The notes: generated from the sequence alone by a model not told the origin. A stretch of DNA of 64,000 bases from a candidate division WWE3 bacterium RIFOXYC1_FULL_40_10 (GCA_001773215.1 MEWB01000001.1:395052-459051), one strand, 5' to 3'. Shown: positions 19,232 to 46,016, counted from the first letter of the stretch. A program made the numbers and translations.

Positions 19232-19651
19232 ATGAATGACTTAATAATTAGCAATTATGAAGAACGCAACAAACAGCTATTAGAGGACTGTATATCTATT
19301 TGGGTTGAACACGACTTTCAATCGCGCTGGTTTCGTGTAAAAGGATACCATGAATTGGGCAAAAGACTTTTAGAAGAACCAAAGGAATATGGGGATAGGT
19401 TTGTGCCATTGGTGGCAGAATCTTTGGGTAAAAGTGAACGAACAATATACAGGACTATTGAATTTGCACGAGCATTTCCTGATTTAGATTTACTTCCCGA
19501 AGGTAAAAATATTAGCTGGTACAAGATAATTCAAAAATATCTCCCATTAGAAACAAGATGTATAGGAGACGCTATGCTAGTGTATATATGTCCCAACTGT
19601 AATTCCGAACACAAAAAATCAGATATAAAGTTCATAAGAAAGAATATATAG
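19232..19651 (+). CDS. hypothetical protein with C-terminal CxxC zinc-ribbon (island-borne)
   Basis: CPNCNSEHK; GKSERTIYRTIEFARAF is possibly HTH-like. A TATAAT lies 10 nt upstream. Confidence 0.45.
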   Translation: MNDLIISNYEERNKQLLEDCISIWVEHDFQSRWFRVKGYHELGKRLLEEPKEYGDRFVPLVAESLGKSERTIYRTIEFARAFPDLDLLPEGKNISWYKIIQKYLPLETRCIGDAMLVYICPNCNSEHKKSDIKFIRKNI

Positions 19652-19652
19652 A

Positions 19653-20456
19653 ATGTTTCGGTTACCAGAAGCAGAGGAAATAAATCTATTAGATGCTAAG
19701 GCTAGAATTAACTTTGATTCCATAATCAACACAAGAAAGTACACCGTTAAAGACTCTACAATGACTTACCGTCAAGCTAATTCTATGGCGAGTGATAATA
19801 TGCTTCCCGAAGACAAAGATAGGGATAATGGGTGGAGAAAGTTCAGTCTCAAGGAGTTAATTTACATTGAATTGGTCTTATCACTAAAGAAGTTGGGACT
19901 AAAACACAGTCAACTTAGAAATGTTTGGGACTCTTTTTTCAATCCGTATGATGACGCAAAAAAGGAAAAACGATTATGGAGAGAAATTAGTGATGATGTG
20001 ATTGCGTTAGTAATGGGTCACATAGACATGATTTTAACAATAACTGCAGGTGGGGAGGTTTCCTATATACACCCTGTTTTTTTTACTAGGGAATATCCAA
20101 CTGAAGAGCCATTTGTTTTTGTTAGTATGAGCGATACCGTTAATAAAGTAGCTAAAAGAATTGGTAAAGAAGGGTTTACACCAAAAGCAACATTAGATAG
20201 CATTTATCACATCTTAACAACCAAAGAAGAAAAGGCATTAGCCCTTATAAGAAACGGCGAGTTTAGAACAATAAAGTTAACAAAAAAGGATGGGGAAATA
20301 GAGTTAATCCATGCAGAGCAGATGAATAAATCCGATAATATTACAATTAAAGCAATTGAGGAAGTCATCTCAACAGGTAAATACCAAAAAATTACTATTA
20401 CTCAAAAAGATGGAAAATTAGTCAACCTTACACAAGAAGTTATGATGAAAGTCTAA
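19653..20456 (+). CDS. hypothetical protein (267 aa, island-borne)
   Basis: Follows the previous ORF with 1-nt spacing. No recognised motif. Confidence 0.45.
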   Translation: MFRLPEAEEINLLDAKARINFDSIINTRKYTVKDSTMTYRQANSMASDNMLPEDKDRDNGWRKFSLKELIYIELVLSLKKLGLKHSQLRNVWDSFFNPYDDAKKEKRLWREISDDVIALVMGHIDMILTITAGGEVSYIHPVFFTREYPTEEPFVFVSMSDTVNKVAKRIGKEGFTPKATLDSIYHILTTKEEKALALIRNGEFRTIKLTKKDGEIELIHAEQMNKSDNITIKAIEEVISTGKYQKITITQKDGKLVNLTQEVMMKV

Positions 20457-20549
20457 CCACTGAGCTGATACACAGCAGGTGTTAGCATGTAATTAAAATT
20501 TATAAGCAAGTTATGAGAAACACTCAAGCTGGCTGGGACAACCAGTACT

Positions 20550-20714
20550 ATGAGTGCAGAAAAAGAAAAGTTAGCTAAAATTGCTCAATCTATAGAAAGG
20601 AAGACTAGTATTAAAGATAAAGAAAAGATATTAGGAATAGCACAGGCTGTAGATGACTTCGCTGGTCTAATTCTACAAAGCTATTTAGCAGGAAAGGCAT
20701 TAAAGAAAAAATGA
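20550..20714 (+). CDS. small ORF (54 aa) translationally coupled to the recombinase gene; candidate recombination accessory/directionality factor
   Basis: Own translation MSAEKEKLAKIAQSIERKTSIKDKEKILGIAQAVDDFAGLILQSYLAGKALKKK. Its stop TGA overlaps the recombinase ATG (ATGA). Confidence 0.25.
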   Translation: MSAEKEKLAKIAQSIERKTSIKDKEKILGIAQAVDDFAGLILQSYLAGKALKKK

Positions 20715-22213
20715 AAGCAATAATTTATTGTAGGGTATCTACACAGGAACAAGTTAATGAGGGCAACAGTCTTTTAACACAAGAAAGGCTTTGTAGGCAG
20801 TATGGAAAAAATAATGGCTACGAGATTGACAAGGTTTTCGTTGAGGAAGGTGAAAGTGCTAAAACCATATACAGAACATCCCTCAAGAACATGATGAAAT
20901 ATTGTACTTTAACGGAAGGTAAAATTGATGCTGTGTTGATTTATAGAATTGATAGGCTTTCAAGAGAAACTGCAGACTATATAGCCTTAAAGGTTTTTTT
21001 TAATAAATTAGGGATTAAAGTGATATCTACCAGCGAACCAATTGAAGATACACCTACAGGTAGGTTTTTAGAAACTGTTCTCGCAAGTAGTGCTCAAATG
21101 GATAATGAGATAAGAGGAGAACGAAGTAAAAACGGTATGATAGACCGTCTAAAACAAGGAAGATGGATGTTTTATGCACCTTTAGGTTATAGGACAGAGG
21201 GAGCAAAAGGTGCCTCAAATATAGAACCTGTAGAACCCATAGCAGGTTATATAAACAGGGTTTTTATGGCACTATCCTCTGGGTATATAACGGTAGAAGA
21301 GGTGCGAAGGGACTCCGCAAAATGGGGACTTGTAACAAACAGAGGTAAAGCACTTAGCATTTCAATGTTTCATAAAATGATTAGAAACCCGATTTATAAG
21401 GGGTACTTAGATGTCCCTAGCATGGGGATTTATCAAAAAGGCAGTTTTAAGGCTATTGTAGATGAAAAAGTATTTGACCAAGTTCAGTATATTTTAGAAA
21501 GCAAAAAGAAGAAAATGCCTATATATAGAAAATTAAACCCTGACTTTCCTTTAAGGGGTGCATTGAAATGTAGCAAATGTGGAAAATTACTAACAGCGAG
21601 TTGGGCAAAGCAAAGAACCATAGGTCACTACAGGTGTTCAGTATGTACCAATGTGAACCTAAACAAAAAGGTTTTGGAAAATACATTTAGTGAATACCTT
21701 AAGTCAATAGTTTGGAACCAAATAACAGTTGAAGTTGTAAAAGAAGCATTGTTATTAAATTGGCAATCGCACAAAAAAGAATACGAAAAAGAACTAGCTA
21801 AAATTGCGAAGCAACAAATTGAAATAAGAGAGTTAATGGATAAAGTTGTTGATAAAAACATGAGGGGTGTTTACAGTGACTCGCTAGCAAAAACTAAACT
21901 AAATGATTATGAAAGGAACCTCGCCGAATTGCGTTTAGAGACCCAGAAATATGCTTCTCCAGATGTTATGGAGGCAGATTTACTTAACTACAGCGTTGAC
22001 TTCATGCGTAATATAACTGGTATGTGGGATAAATTGGATATAGAACCAAAGCATAGGTTGCATAAAATGTTATTTCCTGATGGTATCGTTTATTTGAATG
22101 GGATATTTACAACCCCTGTTAAATCCTGTCTTATAGAGCTAAACGATCTAGTATGTGTTGAAAATTCTACTATGGTGACCCCACGGAGAATCGAACTCCG
22201 GTTGCCGGGATGA
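20711..22213 (+). CDS. large serine recombinase (resolvase-domain integrase)
   Basis: N-terminal catalytic context IIYCRVSTQEQ and resolvase-domain motifs (LIYRIDRLSR, SAQMDNEIRGERSKNG). Downstream recombinase domain and zinc ribbon CSKCGKLL..YRCSVC. The last 13 codons are encoded within the tRNA-Glu sequence. Confidence 0.9.
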   Translation: MKAIIYCRVSTQEQVNEGNSLLTQERLCRQYGKNNGYEIDKVFVEEGESAKTIYRTSLKNMMKYCTLTEGKIDAVLIYRIDRLSRETADYIALKVFFNKLGIKVISTSEPIEDTPTGRFLETVLASSAQMDNEIRGERSKNGMIDRLKQGRWMFYAPLGYRTEGAKGASNIEPVEPIAGYINRVFMALSSGYITVEEVRRDSAKWGLVTNRGKALSISMFHKMIRNPIYKGYLDVPSMGIYQKGSFKAIVDEKVFDQVQYILESKKKKMPIYRKLNPDFPLRGALKCSKCGKLLTASWAKQRTIGHYRCSVCTNVNLNKKVLENTFSEYLKSIVWNQITVEVVKEALLLNWQSHKKEYEKELAKIAKQQIEIRELMDKVVDKNMRGVYSDSLAKTKLNDYERNLAELRLETQKYASPDVMEADLLNYSVDFMRNITGMWDKLDIEPKHRLHKMLFPDGIVYLNGIFTTPVKSCLIELNDLVCVENSTMVTPRRIELRLPG

Positions 22214-22247
22214 AAACCCGGCGTCCTAACCGTTAGACGATGGGGCC
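22173..22247 (-). tRNA. tRNA-Glu (anticodon TTC)
   Basis: Minus-strand GGCCCCATCGTCTAACGGTTAGGACGCCGGGTTTTCATCCCGGCAACCGGAGTTCGATTCTCCGTGGGGTCACCA. Acceptor 7 bp with one G-U pair, anticodon loop TTTTCAT, TTCGATT T-loop, CCA encoded. Confidence 0.9.
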
Positions 22248-34836: not shown

Positions 34837-35901
34837 GTGAAGGAGTCCGTAAAAACAATTGCCACCAAAACAAAGGAGCTATTCACCGACAAAGCCCTTT
34901 GCAAAGAACTAAAACTTATCGCTGTAGCTTATTCCCACATAGAACGCGAAATGTTTGCGACGGAGGATGCATACAATGCTGAACTTGAAGTTGAAGAACG
35001 TGCCAAGCAAGTAGTTGAAACACTAAAAAAGCTGGGTTTCAACGTAAAAAGTTATGCCAGTGACCCTTACTTTCTAACCAACATCATCGTGGATAAGCCT
35101 GATTTACTTATTAATCTTGTAGACACCGTAAAAGGCCGAGATGAACTGCAGGAATCCATCCCTGCAATTTTAGAGTTTGCGGGCATCGAGTACACAGGAA
35201 GCGGTATCTCAGGACTAGTTGTCGGAAATAATCGAAATTATTTTAAACAGCTACTAATTACATCAGAAATTCCCTCACCTCAATTTAAATATATTAAAGA
35301 TTTAAGATCTAATACTGAACCCGACTTTGATCCACCTTATATAGTTAAACTAAATGAAAGCGGCGGAAGTGTAGGTATCGACAATAAAGCAGTAAAAGCT
35401 ACGAAAAAAGAAGTGTTAGAAAAAGTTAAAGACATGATTACCGCCTACAAGATGCCCGTTCTCATTGAACAGTTTATAGGCGGACCTGAAATCACAGCAG
35501 TCGTATTCGATGATGGGAATTCAAAAACTGTATATTTAGCTGAGAAAAAGTTTGGGATAAAACCGGACGGCGTGCACAATTTTACCAGCCAGGATAGCTA
35601 CGAATACGACAAAGCCTACACATATAAGTTTGTAGACGAAAAACTGGAGGAAAGGATAATTCCTCTAGTAATTAAGGCTTTCAACGTATTAAAATATAAA
35701 GATTACGCCAAATTTGACATTAGATTAGGGGAAAATGACATTCCATTTTTTATCGACTGCAACCCCAATACAGCATTCGGCCCCGATAAGGGTTTGCCTA
35801 TGACAGAGGTTTTAAAGATGTATGGAGTTAGCTTCGAAAATGTACTTTTAAGTTTAGTTAGCAAGCATGCCAGAATTATCAAAAACAAAAAGGTTGGATA
35901 A
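34837..35901 (+). CDS. ATP-grasp ligase (D-alanine--D-alanine-ligase-like fold)
   Basis: GTG start. PYIVKLNESGGSVGI (central-domain Gly loop), EQFIGGPEITAVVF, KFDIRL..FFIDCNPNTAFG (the Ddl E-x-N position reads D-x-N). Confidence 0.65.
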   Translation: MKESVKTIATKTKELFTDKALCKELKLIAVAYSHIEREMFATEDAYNAELEVEERAKQVVETLKKLGFNVKSYASDPYFLTNIIVDKPDLLINLVDTVKGRDELQESIPAILEFAGIEYTGSGISGLVVGNNRNYFKQLLITSEIPSPQFKYIKDLRSNTEPDFDPPYIVKLNESGGSVGIDNKAVKATKKEVLEKVKDMITAYKMPVLIEQFIGGPEITAVVFDDGNSKTVYLAEKKFGIKPDGVHNFTSQDSYEYDKAYTYKFVDEKLEERIIPLVIKAFNVLKYKDYAKFDIRLGENDIPFFIDCNPNTAFGPDKGLPMTEVLKMYGVSFENVLLSLVSKHARIIKNKKVG

Positions 35902-36505
35902 AATTCGTACTATCCAGCAAATATCCGAAAATCACTGCGGGCCGGCCGTCGTACAGATGTTGCTGGAAAACATTGGGATTGAAACAACCCAGGAACTGAT
36001 CACAAAAGCGGGAGGTTCAAATGAGTCTATGCTTGACCGATATGGAATGCGTGTGGACCAATTTGCAAAAGCTGTGTTTGTTATAGCACCCACTGCTTCC
36101 TTGTGGACTAAGGAGAAGGCTACTGTAAATGATATAAAAAAGTTACTTGAGGTTTACGATCATCCGGTGGGTATAGAGTGGCAGGGGCTGTTTGAAGACT
36201 CCTTAGAAGAGGAGGACCCTGATGAAGACTATGGGCACTATAGCATAGTCTCACATGTGGATGAAGAAACGGGTAATTTAATAATTGTAGACCCATACAA
36301 AGACTTTGTAGATAGAAACAGAATAGTCTCCAACAAAATCTTTGTGAAAAGGTGGTGGGACAATAATGCGTACATGGACGAGGTAACCTGCAAATTGAAG
36401 CATAAAAAGGACGTGAGGCTTCTATTCATTATTGCAGACAACTCGGAAACGTTTCCTGAAGAACTTGGACTTACGAAGGTAAGACAAGCCTCGTGTAACA
36501 CGTAG
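35867..36505 (+). CDS. papain-like cysteine peptidase, C39-like domain
   Basis: Q(x5)NHCGPAVVQMLL catalytic-Cys context and downstream GHYSIVSHVDEETGNLIIVDP His/Asp context. Overlaps the ATP-grasp gene by 35 nt. Confidence 0.5.
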   Translation: MPELSKTKRLDKIRTIQQISENHCGPAVVQMLLENIGIETTQELITKAGGSNESMLDRYGMRVDQFAKAVFVIAPTASLWTKEKATVNDIKKLLEVYDHPVGIEWQGLFEDSLEEEDPDEDYGHYSIVSHVDEETGNLIIVDPYKDFVDRNRIVSNKIFVKRWWDNNAYMDEVTCKLKHKKDVRLLFIIADNSETFPEELGLTKVRQASCNT

Positions 36506-37000: not shown

Positions 37001-39133
37001 TCACTTTGCGCTAACCTTAGCTCCAGCCCTTACGTTGAATTTCACTCCACTCTTATCCCAGGTTACTTCCACGTTGTCTCCCTCACCTAATTCACCCTTA
37101 ATTATCTTTCCTGATAACACGTTATCAAGCTCCTTCTGGATTAGTCTTCTCAAGGGTCGGGCTCCGTATTCATCGCTATAGCCTTCGCTTGCGAAATATT
37201 TTACAGCCTTCTCATCCACGGTCAGGTCGATTCCTTGCTCTAAGATTAACTTTACAGTCTTTTGAACCATCCGTCTGGAGATTTCTTCAATATCCTTTGG
37301 TGATAAGCTGGTAAAGACGATTATTTCATCAATTCGGTTCAAGAATTCCGGTCTAAATGAATTCTTTAACAAGGAATCGATTTTTTTATGCGTATCGCTT
37401 TTTTCCACATTTTTATCTTTAGATTTGCGAGACCCCTTATCAAATCCAATCTCTTGTCTTCTTAGCAGGTCAGATCCCACATTTGAGGTCATTATTAAGA
37501 TAGTGTTTTTGAAGTCAACAGTCCTCCCTTTGCTGTCAGTAAGCCTTCCATCCTCCATAATTTGTAACAAGGCGTTAAACGTATCAGGATGGGCTTTTTC
37601 GATCTCGTCCAAAAGTATGACCGAAAAGGGCTTTCTCCTAACTATGTCTGTCAGTTGACCTCCCTGATCAAAGCCAATGTAACCCGGAGGCGCACCTATT
37701 AGCTTACTAACCGAATGCTTCTCCATGTACTCACTCATGTCTAAACGTACAACCATATCTTCGTTTCCATACAAAGACTCAGTTAATGCCTTAGCAAGCT
37801 CGGTTTTTCCAACTCCTGTAGGTCCTAAAAATAAGAAGCTCCCGATAGGTCTCTTGGGATCCTTTAAACCTGCTCTCGCGCGTCTTATCGCCTCTGCAAG
37901 TACACTCACAGCTTCCCCCTGGCCAACAATTCTTTGAGAAATCGTCTTTTCCAAATTTAACAATCTCTCTTTCTCCTTAACACTTAACTTCTCTAAAGGG
38001 ATGCCTGTGGCACGTGAAACTACTTTTACAACAGCATCCTCCCAAACAGTCGGAATATCTTCGAGCTTGGTTTTAGTCCAAATTTCGGTCAGTTCTTTTT
38101 TTACTTTTTCCAATTCCGATATTCTTTTTGAAATCTCTTTTTTGCGGTCCTCCCCCAGGTCAGATCTAAACTCCTCTTTTAGCTGCACAAGCTCTGCGGT
38201 AACCTCTCTCAGATTCTCCGGCTCTTTTACCTGAGACAGTCTCACCAATGCACTTGCTTCATCAATCAAGTCAATTGCCTTATCAGGCAAAAAGCGGTCG
38301 CTAACATATCTATCGCTCATTTTTACAGCAGCTGCTATTGCCTCATCAGATATTTTTACCTGATGATGTTTTTCATAATTTTCACGTAATCCATAAAGTA
38401 TCTTTACGGTGTCTTCAGTAGAAGGCTCTTCCACCATTACCGGCTGAAATCTTCTCTCTAGGGCCGCATCTTTTTCTATATGCTTACGATATTCGTCGAT
38501 TGTAGTGGCCCCCACCATTTGCAACTGTCCCCGCGATAGTGCGGGTTTTAAAATGTTTGCCGCATCCATACTACCTTCGGCACTACCAGCCCCTACAACA
38601 GTGTGTAACTCGTCTAAAAACATTATTATCTGCCCTTTTGCGTCGATCACTTCCTGAATGATGTCTTTGAGACGGGATTCAAACATACCTCTATGAGAAG
38701 TACCTGCCAAAACAGAGGCAAGATCTAACGCGAACACCCTTTTTCCTCTCAGCAACTCAGGTACCTGCCCGTCTACTATTCTTTGAGCCAAACCCTCAAC
38801 AATTGCTGTTTTACCTACTCCGGGATCACCGATTAATACGGGATTATTCTTTGTTCTTCGGGATAAAATGTGAACGACTCGCTCTATTTCATCTTTTCGA
38901 CCAATTACCGGGTCCAACAGGCCATCTTTAGCCATCTCAGTTAGATCTCTTCCAAACTTATCCAATTTTGATGCCTTATCTGTAGTCTGTTTTGTTAGCT
39001 CCTCGTAACACTCTTCACAAACAGCCATATATATCTGTTGTCCGTTAATGATTTGATTTATTGGAATTTTGGCGGGTTTCTGCCCGCATCGATGACACAT
39101 TACCATACAGAATATTTTAGCAGGAATATCCAT
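37001..39133 (-). CDS. ClpC/ClpB-family double-AAA+ chaperone ATPase with N-terminal zinc-ribbon
   Basis: Walker A GDPGVGKT (D1) and GPTGVGKT (D2), short coiled-coil linker. N-terminal CHRCG..CEECYEE replaces the usual Clp_N repeats. Confidence 0.85.
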
Positions 39134-39163: not shown

Positions 39164-39574
39164 TCACTTTGGCTGTTTTTTTTGGTACTTGTAATCTATT
39201 CCCCCTGCTCGCCTATTACCGGCATATGTGTGTTTCTTCATAAAGTCAGCGGGGAATCTTTCCTCAAACTCATTAAGCCTATCTATAACTGCTTTTTGTG
39301 AATCAACCTCAAAAACGCACGCCAGTTTGTATACGAGGTACATTAAATCCCCTATGCTATCCTCCAGCTCGAGTTTATTTTCACTCATCACTTTTTTTAA
39401 CAGGGTCTCGTCTTTTTCCAAATGTTTAACTATATTCCATGCCTCCCCTATTTCCTCAGTAAGGTTTAACAGAATCCCATACACCTGGTATTTCTCTCCC
39501 CAATTACGAGCACTAATAAATTTATTGATCCTTTTCTGCATTTCATCTATTTTTACACTACTTTTTTTTGGCAT
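39164..39574 (-). CDS. MazG-like all-alpha NTP pyrophosphohydrolase
   Basis: ISARNWGEKYQ..LLNLTEEIGEAWN..LELEDSIGDLMYLVYKLA matches the MazG/dCTPase-type EExxE..D metal-binding helices. Confidence 0.65.
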   Translation of the reverse strand: MPKKSSVKIDEMQKRINKFISARNWGEKYQVYGILLNLTEEIGEAWNIVKHLEKDETLLKKVMSENKLELEDSIGDLMYLVYKLACVFEVDSQKAVIDRLNEFEERFPADFMKKHTYAGNRRAGGIDYKYQKKQPK

Positions 39575-40757
39575 ACACTGAATTTACCCTTTTAGTTCCT
39601 TTGTTCTCAAAACTAATTACTTGAAACCCAGTTTTCTTGAGCATCTTTTTGACACCCGCTATTGAGTATATACTCTTTTCTCTACTCATATCTCCCTCGG
39701 TTTTTCCAACCTTTTGGATAAAATCTAAAATAAGCGTGCCATTATTATTCAGCAAGCGGTATGCCTCCCTAACAAGCTTGTCGGAAGAATACTTTAAATG
39801 AGATAACAAAACTCCTCTGCTCACAATCAGATCGAAACTATTAACAGGTAGTGCTGTGTCAGCTGCATCTCCTACAAGGTACCCAATCTTTGGCGTTAGT
39901 TTTTTGGCAACGGCAATCATTTCTGGCGCAATATCAATTCCGGTGACTGATTTTGTAATTTTGGCCGACAAAAGGTGCCTGGCCACAATTCCTGTGCCGC
40001 ATCCCAGATCCAGTGCCTTTCTAAAAGTGGTCTTCCTACACACCTTTTCTACAAACCGGAGGAACCTTTTATAGCCCTTTTCAATGTTTACGTAGTGGGC
40101 CGAATTCTTGACATCTTTCTCCCAGGAACCAGCATGCTCCCCCCACTTTTTTTCGGAAATAATGTTAAGCATCTTTTCGAACTCGCATTCATACACGTGT
40201 AGGGACATAATGAAAATTGTAAAATCACCGGACTGAAGTTTAAGTTTTTTTGCAACTTGGTTGTGAATTTCCGATAATTTATATAAATCCGGGGGGAGCT
40301 TTTTTAGTGCGTCCATACTGCGCGATGCCACCGACATTACAAGTCTTCCATCTCTAATCATAAAGTTAAGCCCCCATACGCAAGGCACATGCTCATACGC
40401 AGTTTTTGGATCGATAAGTGTGACTATAGCTGATTTAGACCATGGGTTTTTTTTCAACTTCTTCACAACCAAATCGAGTTGGTCTATTCCATCGAAACTA
40501 TGTATATTCTTATAGTAGTACCCCTTCTCGAAGATGGCCTTAACAAACTCAAAGTGCTTTGAACCCATTTTCTCTAAATACCACGAAAGCTCAGCTCTAT
40601 CCGATTTATTACCGCAAACGCTTATTTTCATGTTTCGAAGTTCCAAAAGCTTTTCATCACCGTCGATGATTTCGCGGCCATATTTGAACAAGGCTCTTAA
40701 AGCTTTGTACCAGGCATCACTAAGGTTATTCGCTTTGTAATTAAGGTAGTCTTCCAT
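39558..40757 (-). CDS. thymidylate-synthase-like (pyrimidine C5 hydroxymethylase/methylase fold) fused to a class I SAM-dependent methyltransferase
   Basis: N-terminal half aligns by eye to ThyA: IDQLDLVVKKLKKNPWSKSAIVTLIDP, catalytic Cys in VPCVWGLNFMIRDGRLVMSVASRSMDALKKLPPD, and ..FIMSLHVYE. C-terminal half has LDLGCGTGIVARHL and DLIVSRGVLLSHL. Confidence 0.75.
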   Translation of the reverse strand: MEDYLNYKANNLSDAWYKALRALFKYGREIIDGDEKLLELRNMKISVCGNKSDRAELSWYLEKMGSKHFEFVKAIFEKGYYYKNIHSFDGIDQLDLVVKKLKKNPWSKSAIVTLIDPKTAYEHVPCVWGLNFMIRDGRLVMSVASRSMDALKKLPPDLYKLSEIHNQVAKKLKLQSGDFTIFIMSLHVYECEFEKMLNIISEKKWGEHAGSWEKDVKNSAHYVNIEKGYKRFLRFVEKVCRKTTFRKALDLGCGTGIVARHLLSAKITKSVTGIDIAPEMIAVAKKLTPKIGYLVGDAADTALPVNSFDLIVSRGVLLSHLKYSSDKLVREAYRLLNNNGTLILDFIQKVGKTEGDMSREKSIYSIAGVKKMLKKTGFQVISFENKGTKRVNSVYAKKK

Positions 40758-40762
40758 ATAAG

Positions 40763-41386
40763 TTATTTGGAAATTACATCAAGATAATCTTTATATTTAT
40801 CATCCTGATAAGTTATCCTATCTTGAATTGATTCTCTCAATATATCGGCTTTACTTTTTTTATAATTGTAAGAAGCCCAGTCTAGGTATTTTTCGAGTTT
40901 TTTATCAATGAAAAAGTTAAAGCGTATCTTTTCTCCTCCGCTTTCGTTTTCTCTAAAAAAGAGAATCATTATGTCCTTTAGAGTAGTCTTGTTATATTTG
41001 CGCATAGTTATTAAATCAGAATCTAACCCGGAAATAAATGAGTCTTTTAAATCCCTCTGGCTATCCTCCGACCATAGTATTAGAACAGGTTTTCTCCTCT
41101 CGATGGCAAGGGAGATTTGGTAACCGATCGAAAAGCTTGGTACAGTTGCTTCAAACACAACAGCATCACAGGCCAGTACTGCTTTGGAAACCTCGTGAAA
41201 TACTTCCTTCCATGGTAACTTTTCACACTTATCTGCCGATTTTTTACTGTCTGTATACTCCAAGGCAACATCAATCCAATCTCTAACCAATGTGTGACCT
41301 AACTCGCTAATGAGAGAGTTTATCAAAATGTAATTTTCCTTATATTTATCTATCTGGGCGGTAGAGCATGCAAAATTTACTTTCAT
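40763..41386 (-). CDS. nucleoside 2-deoxyribosyltransferase / Rcl / MilB-like N-glycosidase-fold protein with C-terminal extension
   Basis: CDAVVFEATVPSFSIGYQISLAIERRKPVLILW closely parallels the Rcl/NDT core (DxxxAEVTxPSxGxGYExG...KPI). Confidence 0.6.
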   Translation of the reverse strand: MKVNFACSTAQIDKYKENYILINSLISELGHTLVRDWIDVALEYTDSKKSADKCEKLPWKEVFHEVSKAVLACDAVVFEATVPSFSIGYQISLAIERRKPVLILWSEDSQRDLKDSFISGLDSDLITMRKYNKTTLKDIMILFFRENESGGEKIRFNFFIDKKLEKYLDWASYNYKKSKADILRESIQDRITYQDDKYKDYLDVISK

Positions 41387-41560
41387 ATCCGAATCCTATT
41401 GACTAAATTGTTACACATGATATATGTAATACATAATAGCTATGTATACGTACCCTATACATAATTACATACACTTCATTTTATACCACATAAATACTCT
41501 GTCTCGCAAACCTCCTTGAATTAACTCTAAAAATGTAACAAATTTCTGTGAGGATTTATT
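41387..41560. promoter_or_regulatory. divergent intergenic region with TATGTATA(N7)TATACATA inverted repeat and multiple ATGTA/TACAT half-sites (operator-like)
   Basis: Read directly: ..atatgtaatacataatagcTATGTATAcgtacccTATACATAattacataca.. Confidence 0.35.
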
Positions 41561-42817
41561 ATGAATTTTAAAAACTTAATATTAATCGACATAGGTACAA
41601 CCACTGTTAAAGCCTATAAGTACTCAGACAAGCTTATACCCTTAGAACAAATCAGTCTCCACTTTAAGCAGGATTTCTCGCCCGAACAAGGGATAACCAA
41701 GGAAAAAGAGCGCGAATTGTTTAAATTTATTGAAAAATTAAAGGCTAAAAACGAAGATACCCCTATCAAAGTCTATGCCACCTCTGTGTTTAGGAAAATG
41801 GACCCCAAAACACAAAAAGCTTTCACAGATAGATTCTTTAATAACACAGGTATCTTCTTCAATATAGTACCCCACGACTTAGAAAATTTCTATCTCCAAA
41901 CTAGTTTAATTGGCAAATATACATCTGCCGATCCTGTTATGCTCATTAACATAGGTGGAGGATCTACCGAGCTGGTTGTACTTGAGAATCGTAAAATAGT
42001 TGAAACTCACAACATAGATTTAGGGGTAGGTGCAGTGTTAGAAAAACACCCTGAAATAAATAAGGAAATTTCCGGGATATTTCTTGACGAGTTAACGCAA
42101 GAAGTAAAATTACAACTGCCGGAGATTGTATCAAAACCCAAAGTTGCATTTTATACCGGAGGAGAACTATCTTATATGAAACTGGCTGAATACCCGTTGA
42201 AAAGCAACTCGCTTTTCGAGGACCCCGACCATCCATACGTAATAGAAACAGCTCAATTTGCTCGAAAGAACAAGGAAGTATTCGAATACATCAGGCTGGA
42301 GACCTTAGAAAAACTGATGCCGGAAAACCCTAAGTGGATGGCCGGAGCACGACCATGTAGTGCAATAGCTCAAGCAATTTGCCAAAAGTATAACATCGAA
42401 TCATTGATACCTTCTGACTCAAACCTGATTAATGGTGTAGTACGACAGGAATTTAGGAAAGTTACCTTAAGCGGAAGCTTTAGAAAGCATCTTGACTATA
42501 TACTAACTATTAAACGGTCTCTGGAGCAGACTAAGATCGAAATACTAAGCCCAAGATTCACCGAACCAAAGAACCCTGGAGAGGAGTTTGTGGTATTTAC
42601 CGGGGAAGAGAATATGACTCCTTTGGATCTCGAGAGACATCATTTGAGATCTATCGAAAACTCAGACGCTTTAATTGTGTGTGACAAGGAAGGTTATGTT
42701 GGTGCATCAGCAATGATTGAAATCGGATATGCGCAGTCTTTCGGGAAAAGAGTCATTTTCGCCGAGCCCCCAGAAGAATTTATGTTAAAGACATTGCCGG
42801 CTGAAATTGGAATATAG
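41561..42817 (+). CDS. fusion of Ppx/GppA-type (ASKHA-fold) phosphatase domain and C-terminal nucleoside 2-deoxyribosyltransferase/Rcl-like domain
   Basis: N-terminal LILIDIGTTTVKAYKY and VYATSVFRKMD. C-terminal DALIVCDKEGYVGASAMIEIGYAQSFGKRVIF parallels the Rcl/NDT core. Confidence 0.55.
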   Translation: MNFKNLILIDIGTTTVKAYKYSDKLIPLEQISLHFKQDFSPEQGITKEKERELFKFIEKLKAKNEDTPIKVYATSVFRKMDPKTQKAFTDRFFNNTGIFFNIVPHDLENFYLQTSLIGKYTSADPVMLINIGGGSTELVVLENRKIVETHNIDLGVGAVLEKHPEINKEISGIFLDELTQEVKLQLPEIVSKPKVAFYTGGELSYMKLAEYPLKSNSLFEDPDHPYVIETAQFARKNKEVFEYIRLETLEKLMPENPKWMAGARPCSAIAQAICQKYNIESLIPSDSNLINGVVRQEFRKVTLSGSFRKHLDYILTIKRSLEQTKIEILSPRFTEPKNPGEEFVVFTGEENMTPLDLERHHLRSIENSDALIVCDKEGYVGASAMIEIGYAQSFGKRVIFAEPPEEFMLKTLPAEIGI

Positions 42818-42911
42818 CTCAATGCGGGCCGCAATACGCGGCCTGCCCCCCTATTTTAGATCGTGCGAATTTAGTATAGTATTACTACACATTAGCTAAA
42901 GGAGGCTTACT

Positions 42912-43256
42912 ATGGCAAACCTAATGCACCTAAGTCGGAAGGCATTTGAGCAGGTTATAGCGAAGGCTAAAACAGTTGAAATTCGAGTTAACGACCAAAA
43001 GCGAAGATTGTTGCGTGTAGGAGACATCATCACATTCGTCAACTGCTCTAATCAAGCAGATACAATATCTGTAGTAGTAACAAAGCTTGCAGTAATGGAT
43101 CTGTTTGTAGACCTATTCAGAGAAGTACTCCCTTCACTAGCAGGATGGCCGGCCGGAACCTCACCAAGAGACGCTGCTATCGCAATGCAATATTATTATA
43201 CCCTTGAAGAGGAAAGAGAATTCGGAGTGGTCGCCATTTTCTTTGAAAGAGTTTAG
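42912..43256 (+). CDS. ASCH (PUA-like) domain protein
   Basis: About 114 aa. TVEIRVND..GDIITFV beta-barrel pattern typical of ASCH; low-complexity call. Confidence 0.45.
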   Translation: MANLMHLSRKAFEQVIAKAKTVEIRVNDQKRRLLRVGDIITFVNCSNQADTISVVVTKLAVMDLFVDLFREVLPSLAGWPAGTSPRDAAIAMQYYYTLEEEREFGVVAIFFERV

Positions 43257-43303: not shown

Positions 43304-45133
43304 TTAATGCTCCCAAACATCACCAACAAAGGGCTCCGAAGCTAGCGGAACTTTTTTGATAAATATTTCACCTGCCCTTATCATATCGTTAGACAAAACA
43401 TGAGAAAATTCCTCAGCTTGATCTTCCCTAACTTCACACACTATTTCGTCATGTACAGTATGGGTAATTCCCCCATCGTACTGGCCACTTTTAAACCTTT
43501 CTTGAACAAAAACCAAGGCATACTTTATTGCATCAGCGTTTGTACCCTGAATAGGATGGTTTTTTGCCTGTCTTTGAATTCTGCTTATTTTTTTTCTATA
43601 TTCAGGATCGGATTTTTCCGGTAATTTGTACCATCTTTTTCTTCCCGCCGGAGTCATACTGTACCCATGCACAATGGCATCCTTAGCCTGTTTATCCAGC
43701 CATTTACGGACGCTTGGGTAAGACTGGAAATATTTCTCCATATATTGTTCTGCATCCTCAGGGGTTACATCAATTTGCCTAGCTAAGCTTCCGGCACCCA
43801 TTCCATACATTAATCCAAAATTAATAGCTTTCGCCGCCTGTCGCTTGTCTGGATATTTCTTTTTAAAATCATCCGTGTATTCCAAACCAAACATTAGCGC
43901 CGCGGTATAAGAATGTAAATCAAGTCCGTCTTTAATGGCCTTAATAAACTTTTCATCTCCCGACAAATCAGCTAATATTCTCATTTCCATCGAAGAATAA
44001 TCCGAAACTACCATTTTGTACCCGGGTTTGGGGTTGAAACAAGTTCTGAAGGAGGCAGTTCTGCCTGCGGGTATTTGCTGAAGGTTAGGTTTGTTACAAG
44101 AAAATCTGCCCGTTGCCGCGCCCATTTGATTAAATTCCGGGTGCACTCTATTTGTTTTTGGATTTACTAATTCTAAAAAGGATTCCCCGAATGCGGATAA
44201 CAGCTTCTCGCTTTGCCTGTAATTTAACAGAATCTGAGCAATCGGATGCTTTTGTTCTTCTAGGATCTCAACTCCCGTCGATGGGATATTTAATTTCAAT
44301 TTGTTGTTAAACAAATCCATCAATTGTTGCTGACTATTCAGGTTTATAGCCGGAGCAGTACCACCAAATAGGTTAAATTGCGCGGTGGGAAAGTAGGGTT
44401 TTATTGCCTCATAAAATTCAGCCATAGCTTTGTCTCTATCTACACGGATAATATCCAATATTTCGTGCCATTTCTTGCGATCCACGTAAATACCTCGATA
44501 CTCCATTTCAGCAACCACACTTGTTGTGGCAAACTCCAGCTTGGCAACATTCAACACGTTTTCCTTCTTCAGCTTTTGCAGCTGCTGCTCAAATATCGGA
44601 AAAAGCACAAGCGTATCTTTAGCACCATATTTAAGTTGCTCTTCAGTGAAATGCGCATGCTGCTGACCAGCAAAAGATTTACGAATATCCTTGTTCATAT
44701 CAATTCCGGCGTAAGCTTGGGCAAGTGAAAGTAAACTAAAATAGCCCGAGCCCAACCCTGCTGTTAAAACTGCCTCCGCCAACATGGTATCGTATATGTT
44801 TTCCATAGCAACACCCGTAAAATGCTTTATCCATTTATAATCAAACTTGGCGTTATGTAATATTTTAATAACTTTCTTGTTTGTTAATAACTCAGAAAAT
44901 CCATGTATTTCCCCCAAATGAAGTATCCGGGCGTCAAACACGTAACTAATTGTTTCAGTGCCAATTTGTACAGTTAGCAAGGCACCTAAGTATGGGTCCG
45001 TATGTGTGGTTTCAACGTCAACCCCAACTGCTTTCTCCGAAATTAATGCTTTTAATGCTTCTACCGCCCGAGCAGTGTCGGTAATAAACTCGTATTTTGG
45101 CTCATTTGGATCAAATTTTAGTACATAGGGCAT
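43304..45133 (-). CDS. polA: DNA polymerase I, Klenow-like (3'-5' exonuclease + polymerase, no 5'-nuclease domain)
   Basis: Exo I VGVDVETT. Motif A DYSSMEMRILADLSGD, motif B KAINFGLMYGMG, motif C HTVHDEIV. 609 aa. Confidence 0.9.
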   Translation of the reverse strand: MPYVLKFDPNEPKYEFITDTARAVEALKALISEKAVGVDVETTHTDPYLGALLTVQIGTETISYVFDARILHLGEIHGFSELLTNKKVIKILHNAKFDYKWIKHFTGVAMENIYDTMLAEAVLTAGLGSGYFSLLSLAQAYAGIDMNKDIRKSFAGQQHAHFTEEQLKYGAKDTLVLFPIFEQQLQKLKKENVLNVAKLEFATTSVVAEMEYRGIYVDRKKWHEILDIIRVDRDKAMAEFYEAIKPYFPTAQFNLFGGTAPAINLNSQQQLMDLFNNKLKLNIPSTGVEILEEQKHPIAQILLNYRQSEKLLSAFGESFLELVNPKTNRVHPEFNQMGAATGRFSCNKPNLQQIPAGRTASFRTCFNPKPGYKMVVSDYSSMEMRILADLSGDEKFIKAIKDGLDLHSYTAALMFGLEYTDDFKKKYPDKRQAAKAINFGLMYGMGAGSLARQIDVTPEDAEQYMEKYFQSYPSVRKWLDKQAKDAIVHGYSMTPAGRKRWYKLPEKSDPEYRKKISRIQRQAKNHPIQGTNADAIKYALVFVQERFKSGQYDGGITHTVHDEIVCEVREDQAEEFSHVLSNDMIRAGEIFIKKVPLASEPFVGDVWEH

Positions 45134-45266: not shown

Positions 45267-46016
45267 ATGAGCAGGCTCACGAAAGGGTTATTCAGTAGTG
45301 ATGAAAGAGTTTCTCTTCTGAGGAAGGAGCTGTTTGGTGATAAACTGAAACATTTTGGCAAACTGCTTAACATAAGATTTCCAAACATGGCTCTCAAAGC
45401 ACTCGCAGAGCTGGGAATTTCTCACTTCGCACAGGGTGTCTTAATTAAAAACCGAGATCTGTTCGAGTTTTCATTTGATGGCTTCGATATGGATTGCTTT
45501 AGCTTTGCCCTTAATGGAAGCGCGATTGGGCTTGTTGAGATCAACAACAACCCAGTTATAGCCTGCAAGGAGCTCGCCGCAGACATAGCAGCCATAGTAA
45601 GTGGAATCGCCCTTCGACAAGAAACGGACTTGGTGATTTGCAGTAACTGTGGTGGCAAGCCAGGCGACGTAAGCAGGGAATATTACTGCCCAGGCTGTGG
45701 CGGAGCAGACACATGGAAACTGAAGGATCCGATCACTTCGGGCATGGCACCTATTCCATCATCGTTTTTGAATTTGCTAAATGTGCACGAAATTCAATTG
45801 GTTGACGCTCAGCGGCCTCATCATACAGAAGAACCAGAATACTGCGCAAAGTGCCGTAAAGTGCTAGACAACCTTTACACCGGAATCGATATCATTTATT
45901 ACGATCCGCAAAAAGGATGGGTGGTTGAAGCATCGGCCAAAGGGCTCCATTTCACAGTGTGTCGTGATTGCAGTAAAGAGTTGGAAGGTACGCACAACAC
46001 CGGGTGGGTGACTTAA
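45267..46016 (+). CDS. Cys-rich hypothetical protein (two CxxC..CxxC zinc-ribbon-like pairs)
   Basis: Strong SD ATAGGAGGCTAAAAATG. CSNCGG..CPGCGG and CAKCRK..CRDCSK. G+C-richer. Confidence 0.5.
   Translation: MSRLTKGLFSSDERVSLLRKELFGDKLKHFGKLLNIRFPNMALKALAELGISHFAQGVLIKNRDLFEFSFDGFDMDCFSFALNGSAIGLVEINNNPVIACKELAADIAAIVSGIALRQETDLVICSNCGGKPGDVSREYYCPGCGGADTWKLKDPITSGMAPIPSSFLNLLNVHEIQLVDAQRPHHTEEPEYCAKCRKVLDNLYTGIDIIYYDPQKGWVVEASAKGLHFTVCRDCSKELEGTHNTGWVT

What the first reader, a model, noticed from the sequence alone, without database searches (positions are those of the whole stretch)
39164..43256. Candidate modified-pyrimidine system: MazG-like NTP pyrophosphatase, ThyA-like::SAM-methyltransferase fusion, Rcl/NDT-like N-glycosidase, Ppx/GppA::NDT-like fusion and ASCH reader
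Five adjacent genes all point at pyrimidine nucleotide modification.

- 39558-40757 aligns by eye to thymidylate synthase across the catalytic-Cys region (VPCVWG..RDGRL..ASRS.D..KLPPD, then ..SLHVYE). It carries a class I SAM-dependent methyltransferase domain in the same polypeptide.
- 40763-41386 has the nucleoside 2-deoxyribosyltransferase/Rcl/MilB core.
- 39164-39574, overlapping the fusion gene by 17 nt, is a MazG/dCTPase-type NTP pyrophosphatase.
- Divergently, 41561-42817 fuses a Ppx/GppA-type phosphatase domain to a second Rcl/NDT-like domain.
- 42912-43256 is an ASCH (PUA-like) domain, a fold that often reads modified bases. DNA polymerase I follows immediately.

Two known precedents are combined here. 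The bacimethrin and mildiomycin pathways use a ThyA-like CMP hydroxymethylase (BcmA/MilA), an N-glycosidase (BcmB/MilB) and a methyltransferase (BcmC) to make 5-hydroxymethyl/2-methoxy pyrimidine antimetabolites. Phage T4 uses dCTPase (gp56) plus dCMP hydroxymethylase (gp42) for hypermodified DNA.

A fused ThyA::methyltransferase plus two NDT-like proteins in one locus is, to my knowledge, not a described arrangement. It could encode either an antivitamin/antimetabolite or a DNA/nucleotide hypermodification route in a reduced-genome bacterium.
Basis: partly seen in the sequence, partly recalled or inferred. Interest (0 to 1): 0.85.

Follow-up and report, generated by a model that had tools for sequence, protein, structure and literature searches.

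The report
Regulated modified-cytosine nucleotide operon in CPR

Summary
All five ORFs exist and most domain calls hold. The source is candidate division WWE3 bacterium RIFOXYC1_FULL_40_10.

**Conserved module (three genes).** The 207-aa, 399-aa and 136-aa genes on the minus strand keep the same order in every related locus where the flanks could be read.
- 399 aa: a short thymidylate-synthase-fold domain fused to a class I SAM methyltransferase. It keeps the catalytic Cys and D169 but has Asp at N177 and His at L143. This is a cytosine-specific, non-methyl (hydroxymethylase-like) signature, not a true ThyA.
- 207 aa: has the Rcl/DNPH1/BcmB fold, but the catalytic Glu is Gln across the family. 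It carries an RHH-like tail, and a conserved palindrome lies upstream. I read it as a nucleotide-sensing repressor, not a glycosidase.
- 136 aa: a DCTPP1-like MazG protein, replaced by a CYTH protein in sister loci.

**Unlinked neighbours.** The Ppx/GppA::NDT-like gene is a widespread Patescibacteria gene with unrelated neighbourhoods. It and the ASCH gene are not associated with the module.

**Wider context.** The same TS-like subfamily sits in many uncharacterised clusters with NTP pyrophosphatases, kinases and alternative tailoring enzymes.

The product and its fate (DNA precursor or free metabolite) are unresolved. Verdict: new variant of a known kind, interest about 0.7.

The parts
41443..41461 (.). 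Candidate operator: palindrome TGTATA-N7-TATACA, 57-75 nt upstream of the 207-aa gene, flanked by further TATGTA/TACATA repeats (41423-41471)
   Evidence: One search lists the inverted repeats. The pattern TGTATA-N(1-21)-TATACA occurs twice in the 64-kb window, against 0.16 expected. The same or near-same half-sites (GTGTAT...ATACAC) lie 45-75 nt upstream of the orthologous gene in L001/2, L003, L004, L005 and L087, with only 2 stray hits in 98 loci.
41478..41505 (-). Promoter-like site (GAGACA-16-TAAAAT) just upstream of the palindrome; consensus match only
   Evidence: This is a 9/12 match and promoter-like sites are not enriched over shuffles, so it is weak evidence by itself.
40763..41386 (-). 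207-aa protein. Residues ~1-148 form an Rcl/DNPH1/BcmB-fold nucleotide-binding domain with the catalytic Glu replaced by Gln (GYQ). Residues ~153-195 form an RHH-like beta-alpha-alpha tail. Predicted (d)NMP-sensing autorepressor.
   Evidence: Profile vs PDB: Rcl/DNPH1 E 7.7e-6. Foldseek: DNPH1 1.4e-6, BcmB 4.3e-5. Gln at the nucleophile position in 7/8 close members and in all five newly extracted full-length homologs (L110, L111, L112, L113, L115). AF2 secondary structure is. hhalign places the tail in register with the P22 Mnt RHH, P 0.0045. The gene sits upstream of the fusion in 6/6 independent loci.
40143..40757 (-). Thymidylate-synthase-fold domain (aa 1-205) of the 399-aa fusion: short form with a cytosine-specific signature (C126=C146, R146=R166, D149=D169, D157=N177, H123=L143, K108/S109=R126/R127, K153=G173)
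39558..40142 (-). Class I SAM-dependent methyltransferase domain (aa ~206-399) of the fusion, with the family-specific N-terminal motif HYVNIExGYxRFL and motif I LDLGCGTG
   Evidence: Pfam Methyltransf_11 5.7e-21. Invariant columns are listed. The nearest standalone relatives sit in TS-like clusters.
39164..39574 (-). 136-aa MazG/DCTPP1-like all-alpha NTP pyrophosphatase, overlapping the fusion gene by 17 nt
   Evidence: Orthologs occupy the same slot in L001, L086, L172 and L178. A CYTH-domain protein occupies that slot in L003-5 and L087.

Best explanation
**What it is.** A three-gene, probably autoregulated operon (207 aa, 399 aa, 136 aa; minus strand) that makes a doubly modified cytosine nucleotide.

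**Inferred pathway.**
1. The MazG/DCTPP1-like enzyme hydrolyses (d)CTP to (d)CMP. Alternatively it polices the triphosphate of the product.
2. The thymidylate-synthase-fold domain attacks C6 with its conserved Cys and transfers a one-carbon unit from a folate/pterin donor to C5 of the cytosine nucleotide. The likely product is 5-hydroxymethyl-(d)CMP.
3. The fused class I SAM methyltransferase adds a methyl group to that intermediate. The acceptor atom is unknown.
4. The 207-aa protein is a catalytically dead Rcl/DNPH1-type nucleotide-binding domain fused to an RHH DNA-binding tail. It binds the TGTATA-N7-TATACA palindrome in front of its own gene and tunes transcription in response to a pathway nucleotide.

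**Shown.** Domain identities, the active-site signature, gene-order conservation and operator conservation.

**Inferred.** Substrates, hydroxymethyl versus methyl, the methyl acceptor, ligand sensing, and the fate of the product. In sister loci kinases lie nearby, so a modified dNTP is plausible.
For: **Fusion domains.** Pfam and NCBIfam support both domains.

**Active-site signature.**
- The alignment is in exact gap-free register with E. coli ThyA around the active site. C146, R166, S167 and D169 are kept; N177 is Asp and L143 is His.
- PMC5175136 and PMC13326640 link N177D to cytosine substrates, a non-hydrophobic residue at L143 to non-methyl products, and D169N to flavin-dependent 5-hydroxylases.

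**Closest relatives.**
- The best TS-fold relatives in PDB are MilA CMP hydroxymethylase and phage dCMP-modifying enzymes.
- The closest phage homologs lie next to beta-glucosyltransferase genes.
- The MazG-like protein's best PDB hit is dCTP pyrophosphatase 1.

**Gene-order conservation.**
- The order Rcl-RHH | TS::MTase | MazG or CYTH is conserved at 32-55% identity in L001, L003-5, L086, L087, L172 and L178.
- TS-like plus this MTase subfamily plus an NTP pyrophosphatase (Ham1, MazG, CYTH or NUDIX) plus kinases recur as separate or differently fused genes.

**Regulator.**
- The Rcl fold is confirmed, with Glu replaced by Gln.
- E103A of MilB is inactive, and the DNPH1 chain of entry 8qhq, solved with hmdUMP bound, reads GYQL at this position.
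- The conserved upstream palindrome is shown.
Against: - No biochemical data exist for any family member.
- His or Lys at L143 is not the Asp/Glu seen in proven hydroxymethylases.
- R126 and R127, the phosphate-binding arginines of the partner subunit, are Lys and Ser. The substrate may therefore not be a simple monophosphate.
- The ribose/deoxyribose markers are mixed: K at R126 is ribo-like, S167 is deoxy-like.
- The RHH assignment is statistically weak. There is no Pfam or PDB sequence hit, hhalign probability is low, and AF2 pLDDT is below 60 in the tail.
- One of the four MazG metal ligands (E95 of DCTPP1) aligns with Ser.
- The AF2 model of the fusion is only moderate (pLDDT 73.7, pTM 0.50), so nothing can be said about domain-domain channelling.
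Confidence: 0.5

Rival explanations
1. Bacimethrin/mildiomycin-type antimetabolite route. CMP is converted to hmCMP by the TS-like domain. The 207-aa NDT-fold protein releases the base. The base is then methylated to a 2-methoxy/5-hydroxymethyl pyrimidine that is exported or poisons thiamin metabolism in neighbours.
For: - The component list (TS-like, NDT-fold, SAM MTase) matches BcmA/BcmB/BcmC.
- MilA is the best PDB sequence hit.
- BcmB is a significant fold match of the 207-aa model.
- Lys at the R126 position is the ribo-preferring state of MilA/BcmA.
Against: - The NDT-fold protein has Gln at the nucleophile Glu and lacks the Rcl Tyr/Asp residues. MilB E103A is inactive.
- The protein carries a DNA-binding-like tail and has a conserved operator upstream.
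- No ThiD-like kinase appears among the called neighbours in L001-L005, L086 or L087.
- The partners are NTP pyrophosphatases, dNMP-type kinases and, in sister clusters, a dCTP-deaminase-like gene.
- S167 is the deoxy-type residue.
Confidence: 0.12
2. Flavin-dependent 5-hydroxylation followed by O-methylation. The TS-fold domain acts like phage AfhB/RB69 gp48 and makes 5-hydroxy-dCMP. The fused methyltransferase converts this to 5-methoxy-dCMP.
For: - The best structural match by target coverage is the phage HY126 dCMP hydroxylase AfhB (9iqu, TMt 0.74, rmsd 3.3).
- A phenol-like 5-OH is a chemically natural SAM acceptor.
- GTP cyclohydrolase II genes lie next to the module in L001, L003-5 and L152.
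Against: - All verified 5hodCMP synthases carry D169N (PMC13326640). This family keeps Asp169 invariantly.
- Related short TS-fold proteins are fused to pterin-binding domains.
- The high TM-score may only reflect the shared short form of the fold.
Confidence: 0.12
3. Ordinary housekeeping: the TS-like domain is the organism's thymidylate synthase (archaeal short type) that happens to be fused to an unrelated methyltransferase, and the neighbours are general nucleotide-metabolism genes.
For: - The best NCBIfam model is the methanogen-type thymidylate synthase.
- JGI annotates homologs as thymidylate synthase.
- In homologous loci the module sits among housekeeping genes such as NDK, adenylate kinase and ribosomal protein genes.
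Against: - N177 is Asp and L143 is His/Lys. The archaeal MtrA::TS::pterin-binding relatives keep N177 and R126/R127.
- The TIGR03283 score is far below its cutoff (90.8 vs 174.55).
- There is tight, repeated linkage with a specific MTase subfamily and a dedicated regulator.
Confidence: 0.06
4. Anti-phage or conflict system. The operon is induced on infection and either depletes dCTP/dCMP or makes a toxic cytosine nucleotide analogue. The Rcl-RHH protein acts as the sensor/antitoxin-like repressor.
For: - The distribution is sporadic and the tailoring modules are variable.
- Nucleotide-centred enzymes are combined with a ligand-binding repressor.
- A dCTP-deaminase-like gene follows a P-loop kinase in sister cluster L114.
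- An R-M/recombinase island elsewhere in the window shows that the genome does acquire defence genes.
Against: - PADLOC 2.0 gives no specific hit for any component apart from a generic MTase-domain match.
- The subfamily was not found on IMG/VR contigs or in recognisable defence islands.
- In L003-5 the module is embedded next to the ribosomal protein operon.
Confidence: 0.1

Closest known systems
Phage T4 pre-replicative hydroxymethylcytosine pathway (gp56 dCTPase/dUTPase, gp42 dCMP hydroxymethylase, gp1 dNMP kinase)
   Same: - An NTP pyrophosphatase of the all-alpha MazG/dUTPase type is paired with a TS-fold enzyme carrying Asp at N177 and keeping Asp169.
- Kinases occur in sister loci.
- The closest phage homologs of the TS domain lie next to beta-glucosyltransferases.
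   Different: - The host is cellular (CPR), not a phage.
- The TS domain is the short ~205-aa form, with His rather than Asp at L143 and K/S rather than R/R at 126/127.
- It is fused to a SAM methyltransferase.
- There is no glycosyltransferase.
- A dedicated Rcl-RHH regulator is present.
- No dNMP kinase lies inside the window operon.
Bacimethrin (BcmA/BcmB/BcmC/BcmD) and mildiomycin (MilA/MilB) pathways
   Same: The same three protein folds are present: a TS-like CMP hydroxymethylase, an NDT/Rcl-fold protein and a SAM methyltransferase. MilA is the top PDB sequence hit and BcmB is a fold hit.
   Different: - The NDT-fold protein here lacks the catalytic Glu and is fused to a DNA-binding-like domain.
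- The MTase is fused to the TS-like enzyme.
- There is no ThiD-type kinase.
- A MazG- or CYTH-type triphosphatase is added.
- Orthology of the MTase with BcmC was not tested.
Mammalian nucleotide-pool sanitisers DCTPP1 and DNPH1 (5-hydroxymethyl-dUMP N-hydrolase)
   Same: These are the best solved relatives of the 136-aa protein (DCTPP1) and of the 207-aa protein (DNPH1). Both act on 5-modified deoxypyrimidine nucleotides.
   Different: The DNPH1-like domain here has Gln at the position of the catalytic Glu, as does the hmdUMP-bound DNPH1 chain of entry 8qhq, and so is probably only a binder. The genes are coupled to biosynthetic enzymes, not to catabolism.
Phage 5-hydroxy-dCMP synthases (RB69 gp48, DLP3 gp80, HY126 AfhB; PMC13326640)
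   Same: A TS-fold enzyme acting on dCMP (N177D). AfhB is the best structural match by target TM-score.
   Different: The diagnostic D169N substitution is absent: Asp is invariant here. No flavin evidence is available.
Ligand-responsive RHH repressors such as NikR and MetJ, and the P22 Arc/Mnt RHH fold
   Same: - A short beta-alpha-alpha module with an (R/K)FNF strand, in register with Mnt HFNF.
- A palindromic operator in front of its own operon.
- A ligand-binding domain in the same chain.
   Different: - The sensor domain is an Rcl/NDT-fold pseudo-enzyme placed N-terminal to the RHH.
- I found no description of this combination in 6 full-text searches.
- The RHH assignment is not statistically secure.

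Membership tests
Thymidylate synthase ThyA (dUMP to dTMP) | TS fold / Pfam PF00303 above the gathering score | tested here: met
   54 bits against a cutoff of 24.3. Foldseek to many ThyA structures gives E ~1e-12.
Thymidylate synthase ThyA (dUMP to dTMP) | Catalytic Cys146 and phosphate-binding Arg166 | tested here: met
   C126 and R146 are in exact register with E. coli ThyA. The Cys is invariant in 9 fusions.
Thymidylate synthase ThyA (dUMP to dTMP) | Asn177 (uracil recognition) and a bulky hydrophobic residue at Leu143 (methyl product) | tested here: not met
   D157 and H123 occupy these positions. The criteria come from PMC5175136 and PMC13326640.
Thymidylate synthase ThyA (dUMP to dTMP) | Arg126'/Arg127' pair from the partner subunit | tested here: not met
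   K108 and S109 in the window protein; R/S in the other fusions.
dCMP/CMP 5-hydroxymethylases (T4 gp42, MilA, BcmA) | Asp at N177 with Asp169 retained | tested here: met
   D157 and D149 are invariant.
dCMP/CMP 5-hydroxymethylases (T4 gp42, MilA, BcmA) | Acidic residue (Asp/Glu) at L143 | tested here: inconclusive
   The residue is His (Lys in six homologs). It is polar and so consistent with water access, but it is not the described Asp/Glu.
dCMP/CMP 5-hydroxymethylases (T4 gp42, MilA, BcmA) | Formation of a 5-hydroxymethyl product from CH2-THF | not testable with these tools
   Needs an enzyme assay with LC-MS.
Flavin-dependent 5-hydroxy-dCMP synthases | Asn at D169 (D169N signature) | tested here: not met
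   Asp149 is invariant. The signature is from PMC13326640.
NDT / Rcl(DNPH1) / MilB-BcmB N-glycosidases (207-aa protein) | Flavodoxin-like NDT fold | tested here: met
   Profile vs PDB gives E 7.7e-6 to Rcl. Foldseek gives E 1.4e-6 with TMt up to 0.83.
NDT / Rcl(DNPH1) / MilB-BcmB N-glycosidases (207-aa protein) | Conserved Glu nucleophile (Rcl E93 / DNPH1 E104 / MilB E103), plus Rcl Tyr13 and Asp69 | tested here: not met
   - Gln occupies the nucleophile position (GYQ/GHQ/GFQ) in the window protein, in 7/8 close members, and in all five newly extracted full-length homologs (L110, L111, L112, L113, L115).
- Tyr13 is replaced by N/H/C and Asp69 by S/V/L.
- Only P0113 has Glu.
MazG / all-alpha NTP pyrophosphatase (136-aa protein) | Sequence membership and the four acidic metal ligands (DCTPP1 E63, E66, E95, D98) | tested here: inconclusive
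   - Pfam is below cutoff (E 0.024); NCBIfam 3e-5; DCTPP1 6.8e-5.
- In the alignment E63, E66 and D98 align with E, E and D, but E95 aligns with Ser, with an Asp one position earlier.
- The DCTPP1 residue numbers are from my own knowledge.
Ribbon-helix-helix (Arc/MetJ/CopG) DNA-binding domain (C-terminus of the 207-aa protein) | Beta-alpha-alpha module recognisable by profile | tested here: inconclusive
   - There is no significant Pfam or PDB sequence hit.
- hhalign aligns 38 columns with P22 Mnt in the expected register, P 0.0045, probability 7.8%.
- AF2 shows two helices after a disordered strand region with low pLDDT.
Ribbon-helix-helix (Arc/MetJ/CopG) DNA-binding domain (C-terminus of the 207-aa protein) | Palindromic or repeated operator in front of the regulated operon | tested here: met
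   TGTATA-N7-TATACA lies at 41443-41461. Equivalent palindromes lie upstream of the orthologs in five further loci.
Bacimethrin-type gene cluster | ThiD-like HMP kinase (BcmD) and an active CMP N-glycosidase in the cluster | tested here: not met
   No Phos_pyr_kin-type gene appears among the called genes of L001-L005, L086 or L087. The glycosidase nucleophile is absent.
Bacimethrin-type gene cluster | MTase orthologous to BcmC | not tested
Class I SAM-dependent methyltransferase | Rossmann-like MTase fold with glycine-rich motif I | tested here: met
   Methyltransf_11 at 75 bits and Methyltransf_25 at 74 bits. The LDLGCGTG motif is invariant.
Ppx/GppA::NDT-like protein as a member of the module | Conserved co-location with the TS::MTase genes | tested here: not met
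   Absent from all TS::MTase loci and from 80 TS-subfamily loci. Its own homologs have unrelated neighbourhoods in 3 of 3 cases.

The most novel reading that the evidence does not exclude
The operon, together with kinases encoded elsewhere, feeds a methylated 5-hydroxymethyl-type dCTP analogue into replication. On this reading, this CPR bacterium and the other carriers replace or heavily substitute cytosine in their own chromosomal DNA. That would be a phage-style pre-replicative hypermodification operating in a cellular organism, controlled by a pseudo-glycosidase repressor that senses the modified nucleotide.
Probability: 0.15. Interest if true: 0.93.

Novelty: new variant of a known kind. 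Interest (0 to 1): 0.7.

Why it matters
**Where this chemistry is known.** C5-modified pyrimidine nucleotides made by thymidylate-synthase homologs are known from phages, as anti-restriction DNA hypermodification, and from two nucleoside-antibiotic pathways.

**What is new here.**
- The chemistry appears in chromosomes of ultra-small CPR bacteria.
- It comes in a new fused form, TS-like::SAM methyltransferase.
- It has a dedicated regulator that seems to be a catalytically dead DNPH1/Rcl domain recruited as a nucleotide sensor.
- The same TS-like subfamily (signature K126/S127/H143/D169/K173/D177) anchors a large, uncharacterised set of clusters. These carry interchangeable NTP pyrophosphatases (MazG, CYTH, Ham1, NUDIX), kinases (AAA_17, Tmk::pyruvate-kinase) and tailoring enzymes (MTase, QueC-like PP-loop ATPases, aminotransferases, B12 radical-SAM).

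**If the products are DNA precursors**, this would be evidence for cellular pre-replicative DNA hypermodification.

**If they are free metabolites**, this would be a new antimetabolite family from organisms thought to have minimal biosynthetic capacity.

Either way the system is compact enough (three genes) for direct biochemical testing.

Tried and rejected
- **GTDB species representatives.** A scan for the fusion returned only generic methyltransferases and one split-gene variant, L006.
- **IMG/VR viral contigs.** A scan with the TS-subfamily pattern found nothing. I therefore dropped the idea that the module is simply phage-derived.
- **Defence system.** PADLOC gave only a generic MTase hit (mad2) and nothing for sister-cluster proteins. 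The defence reading is kept only as a low-probability rival.
- **Ppx/GppA::NDT and ASCH as module members.** Rejected on neighbourhood data.
- **PolA adjacency as a functional link.** Not conserved in any homologous locus.
- **RHH confirmation by sequence.** Pfam on isolated tails and a family profile against PDB gave nothing significant. hhalign to Arc was uninformative.
- **Second palindrome at 19184-19215.** It lies in a promoter of an R-M/recombinase island and is judged a chance match.
- **Plasmid TS-like hits.** They belong to other subfamilies and were not informative.
- **Structure prediction with the richer 8-sequence alignment.** The 4-sequence model is of modest quality.
- **Literature.** Six full-text searches found no description of the fusion or of an Rcl-RHH protein.
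- **Other thymidylate synthase in the genome.** I could not test whether the genome encodes another thyA or thyX, because only 64 kb were available.

Full report
**1. What is in the sequence**

Identical proteins in public data place the window in candidate division WWE3 bacterium RIFOXYC1_FULL_40_10, locus tags A3K34_02440 and A3K34_02445, on a contig of up to 903 kb. The surroundings are ordinary chromosome: a 710-aa Clp-type ATPase by eye (37001-39133, not profile-checked), ribosomal protein L19-like and GatB-like ORFs by eye, PolA, six tRNAs, an amidase, and an R-M/recombinase island at 15-22 kb.

**2. The 399-aa fusion**

- Pfam gives Thymidylat_synt (E 1.7e-14, residues 87-203) and Methyltransf_11/25 (E ~1e-20, residues 249-344).
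- The best thymidylate synthase model in NCBIfam is the short methanogen-type form. It matches over its full length (8-195) but far below the family cutoff.
- Against PDB, the best TS-fold sequence hit is MilA, the CMP 5-hydroxymethylase (3e-8), ahead of ThyA.
- An AF2 model (pLDDT 73.7, pTM 0.50) hits MilA at 6e-14. By target coverage it best matches the short phage HY126 dCMP hydroxylase AfhB (TMt 0.74).

An HMM alignment puts the active-site stretch in gap-free register with E. coli ThyA and T4 gp42:

| Window residue | E. coli ThyA position |
|---|---|
| C126 | C146 |
| R146 | R166 |
| S147 | S167 |
| D149 | D169 |
| D157 | N177 |
| H123 | L143 |
| K108 / S109 | R126 / R127 |
| K153 | G173 |

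The literature gives these meanings (PMC5175136; PMC13326640):
- Asp at N177 selects cytosine nucleotides.
- A non-hydrophobic residue at L143 goes with non-methyl products.
- Asn at D169 marks the flavin-dependent 5-hydroxylases.

So the domain is a cytosine-specific C5-modifying enzyme that keeps the folate-type Asp169. It is not a canonical thymidylate synthase. The archaeal MtrA::TS::pterin-binding relatives keep R126, R127 and N177, so the window protein does not group with true short-form TS either. The ribose markers are mixed: K at R126 as in MilA/BcmA, S167 as in deoxy-specific enzymes.

**3. The 207-aa protein**

- No Pfam or NCBIfam hit was found.
- A profile of eight family members hits Rcl/DNPH1, now named 5-hydroxymethyl-dUMP N-hydrolase, at E 7.7e-6 over residues 3-142.
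- The AF2 model hits DNPH1 (E 1.4e-6, TMt 0.77-0.83) and the bacimethrin glycosidase BcmB (4.3e-5).
- In the alignment, the nucleophile Glu (GYELG in Rcl) is Gln (GYQIS). The Rcl Tyr13 and Asp69 positions are N/H/C and S/V/L.
- Gln is kept in the five newly extracted full-length homologs from differently composed clusters (L110, L111, L112, L113, L115). Only P0113 has Glu.
- MilB E103A is inactive. The DNPH1 chain of entry 8qhq, solved with hmdUMP bound, reads GYQL at this position.
- The last ~55 residues, (R/K)FNF-x5-YLDW-x7-KS-x3-R, look like a ribbon-helix-helix. AF2 shows two helices after a low-confidence strand region.
- hhalign puts the tail in register with the P22 Mnt RHH, HFNF...GRS (38 columns, P 0.0045, low probability). 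Pfam and PDB profile searches are negative.

**4. A conserved operator-like palindrome**

- TGTATA-N7-TATACA lies 57-75 nt upstream of the 207-aa gene, at 41443-41461, within a nest of TATGTA/TACATA repeats.
- The pattern occurs twice in 64 kb against 0.16 expected.
- The other match sits in a promoter of the R-M island and is judged chance.
- The same half-sites (GTGTAT...ATACAC) lie 45-75 nt upstream of the orthologous gene in L001/2, L003, L004, L005 and L087. Only two stray matches occur in 98 loci.

This is the strongest support for a DNA-binding, autoregulatory role.

**5. The 136-aa protein**

MazG is weak in Pfam, but NCBIfam gives 3e-5 and the best PDB relative is dCTP pyrophosphatase 1 (6.8e-5, residues 10-111). 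Three of the four DCTPP1 metal ligands align with acidic residues. The DCTPP1 numbering is from my own knowledge.

**6. Neighbourhood conservation**

- Only nine fusion proteins were found among 5.8 billion clusters, at 32-36% identity to the query.
- In every locus where flanks exist (L001/2, L003/4/5, L086, L087, L172), the order is Rcl-RHH gene, then fusion, then a small triphosphatase.
- The third gene is a clear MazG-like ortholog in L001, L086, L172 and L178.
- In L003-5 and L087 the same slot holds a CYTH-domain protein (E 2.6e-7). This is a non-homologous replacement by another triphosphate-acting enzyme.
- Nearby genes in those loci include cytidylate/guanylate kinases, NDK, an AAA_17 kinase and GTP cyclohydrolase II.

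**7. The two plus-strand genes are not part of it**

- The Ppx/GppA::NDT-like protein has at least 489 homologs at ~60% identity across Patescibacteria.
- Three examined homologs sit in unrelated neighbourhoods without any TS-like gene.
- Neither it nor ASCH occurs in any TS::MTase locus or in 80 TS-subfamily loci.
- Its C-terminal NDT-like assignment is weak: Pfam 0.008, BcmB 0.036. It does keep an E-I-G motif.

**8. A wider family**

An exhaustive HMMER search with the TS domain finds 2,893 relatives. The nearest share the K/S/H/C/R/S/D/K/D signature and include TS::MTase, TS::NUDIX and TS::Ham1 fusions.

The nearest standalone MTases lie in these clusters:
- L006: TS | radical SAM | Tmk-like | Ham1-x | MTase.
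- L097: QueC-like | aminotransferase | TS | Ham1::MTase | AAA_17 kinase.
- L099 and L101: (dCMP deaminase) | TS(::Ham1) | B12 radical SAM | pyruvate-kinase::Tmk | HIT-like (assigned by eye from an HxHxH motif, no profile search) | MTase | aminotransferase.

A metagenome scan gave 80 loci. Partner counts among 36 non-identical loci of at least 4 kb:

| Partner | Loci (of 36) |
|---|---|
| QueC-like | 27 |
| Ham1 | 24 |
| AAA_17 kinase | 12 |
| Aminotransferase | 8 |
| Rcl-RHH | 6 |
| MTase | 4 |

L114 also has a dCTP-deaminase-like gene and a DHH phosphoesterase.

The recurring logic is NTP pyrophosphatase plus cytosine-specific TS-like enzyme plus tailoring enzyme plus kinase. This matches the phage pre-replicative route. 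The closest phage homologs of the TS domain sit beside beta-glucosyltransferases. However, the subfamily was not found on IMG/VR contigs and matches no known defence family.

**9. Interpretation**

The best-supported reading is an autoregulated operon that converts (d)CTP to (d)CMP, then to a C5 one-carbon (probably hydroxymethyl) derivative, then to a SAM-methylated product. A pseudo-glycosidase/RHH repressor would sense a pathway nucleotide. Domain identities, signatures, synteny and the operator are shown. Substrates, the methyl acceptor and the product's fate are inferred.

Rivals, with my probabilities:
- Bacimethrin-like free base: 0.12.
- 5-hydroxylation followed by O-methylation: 0.12.
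- Defence system: 0.10.
- Plain thymidylate synthase: 0.06.

The most novel reading not excluded is cellular genome-wide cytosine hypermodification (about 0.15).

**10. Novelty**

Six full-text searches found no description of the fusion, of the Rcl-RHH protein or of these clusters. I classify it as a new variant of a known kind, namely TS-homolog-based pyrimidine modification.

Noticed in passing
window 41561-42817 (+): The Ppx/GppA::NDT-like 418-aa protein belongs to a very strongly conserved family (~60% identity, at least 489 hits) that is widespread in Patescibacteria and has no known function. It has many invariant residues and keeps the NDT-type E-I-G motif. Its neighbourhoods vary: HD hydrolase, NUDIX or DNA glycosylase genes lie nearby in some.
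   Followed up: partly
L103-L116, L114:3100-10900: A large uncharacterised cluster type is built around the same TS-like subfamily: DHH phosphoesterase, Ham1, QueC-like PP-loop ATPase, class I/II aminotransferase, TS-like, a second QueC-like, AAA_17 kinase, dCTP-deaminase-like, a second Ham1 and an Rcl-RHH homolog. It has no MTase, which suggests an alternative tailoring of the same core intermediate.
   Followed up: partly
L006:5241-10642; L099; L101:859-7799: A second cluster type: (dCMP deaminase) | TS-like (sometimes fused to Ham1) | B12-binding radical SAM | pyruvate-kinase::thymidylate-kinase fusion | a ~215-aa protein that I read by eye as HIT-like (HxHxH motif; no profile search) | MTase of the same subfamily as the window's | class V aminotransferase. 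The kinase fusion suggests complete conversion of a modified dNMP to a dNTP.
   Followed up: partly
L001:8338-9036, L003:4263-4856, L004, L005, L152:2-628: A GTP cyclohydrolase II-like gene lies divergently next to the Rcl-RHH gene, or next to a TS-like gene, in several loci of organisms that look genome-reduced. No explanation was found. A flavin link is possible but untested.
   Followed up: no
window 15363-22213: A low-GC (0.34-0.35) island with strong GC skew. It holds an N6/N4 DNA methylase, a 916-aa Eco57I-like type IIG R-M enzyme, two unknown ORFs and a large serine recombinase, and it ends at tRNA-Glu (22173-22247). It is probably an integrated mobile R-M element.
   Followed up: partly
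window 43304-45133 (-): PolA is only 609 aa. It has the 3'-5' exonuclease and polymerase domains but no 5'-nuclease domain.
   Followed up: no
window 35867-36505 (+) and 45267-46016 (+): A cytoplasmic-looking Peptidase_C39-like protein (E 1e-5) and a 249-aa protein with weak double zinc-ribbon matches. Both are of unknown role and flank the region.
   Followed up: no
P0239, P0245, P0277/P0280/P0281: The short TS-fold family shows further fusions. TS::NUDIX and TS::Ham1 carry the same cytosine-type signature. MtrA-like::TS::PterinBD-DUF4346 carries N177 and R126/R127, and is presumably the true methanopterin-dependent thymidylate synthase.
   Followed up: partly
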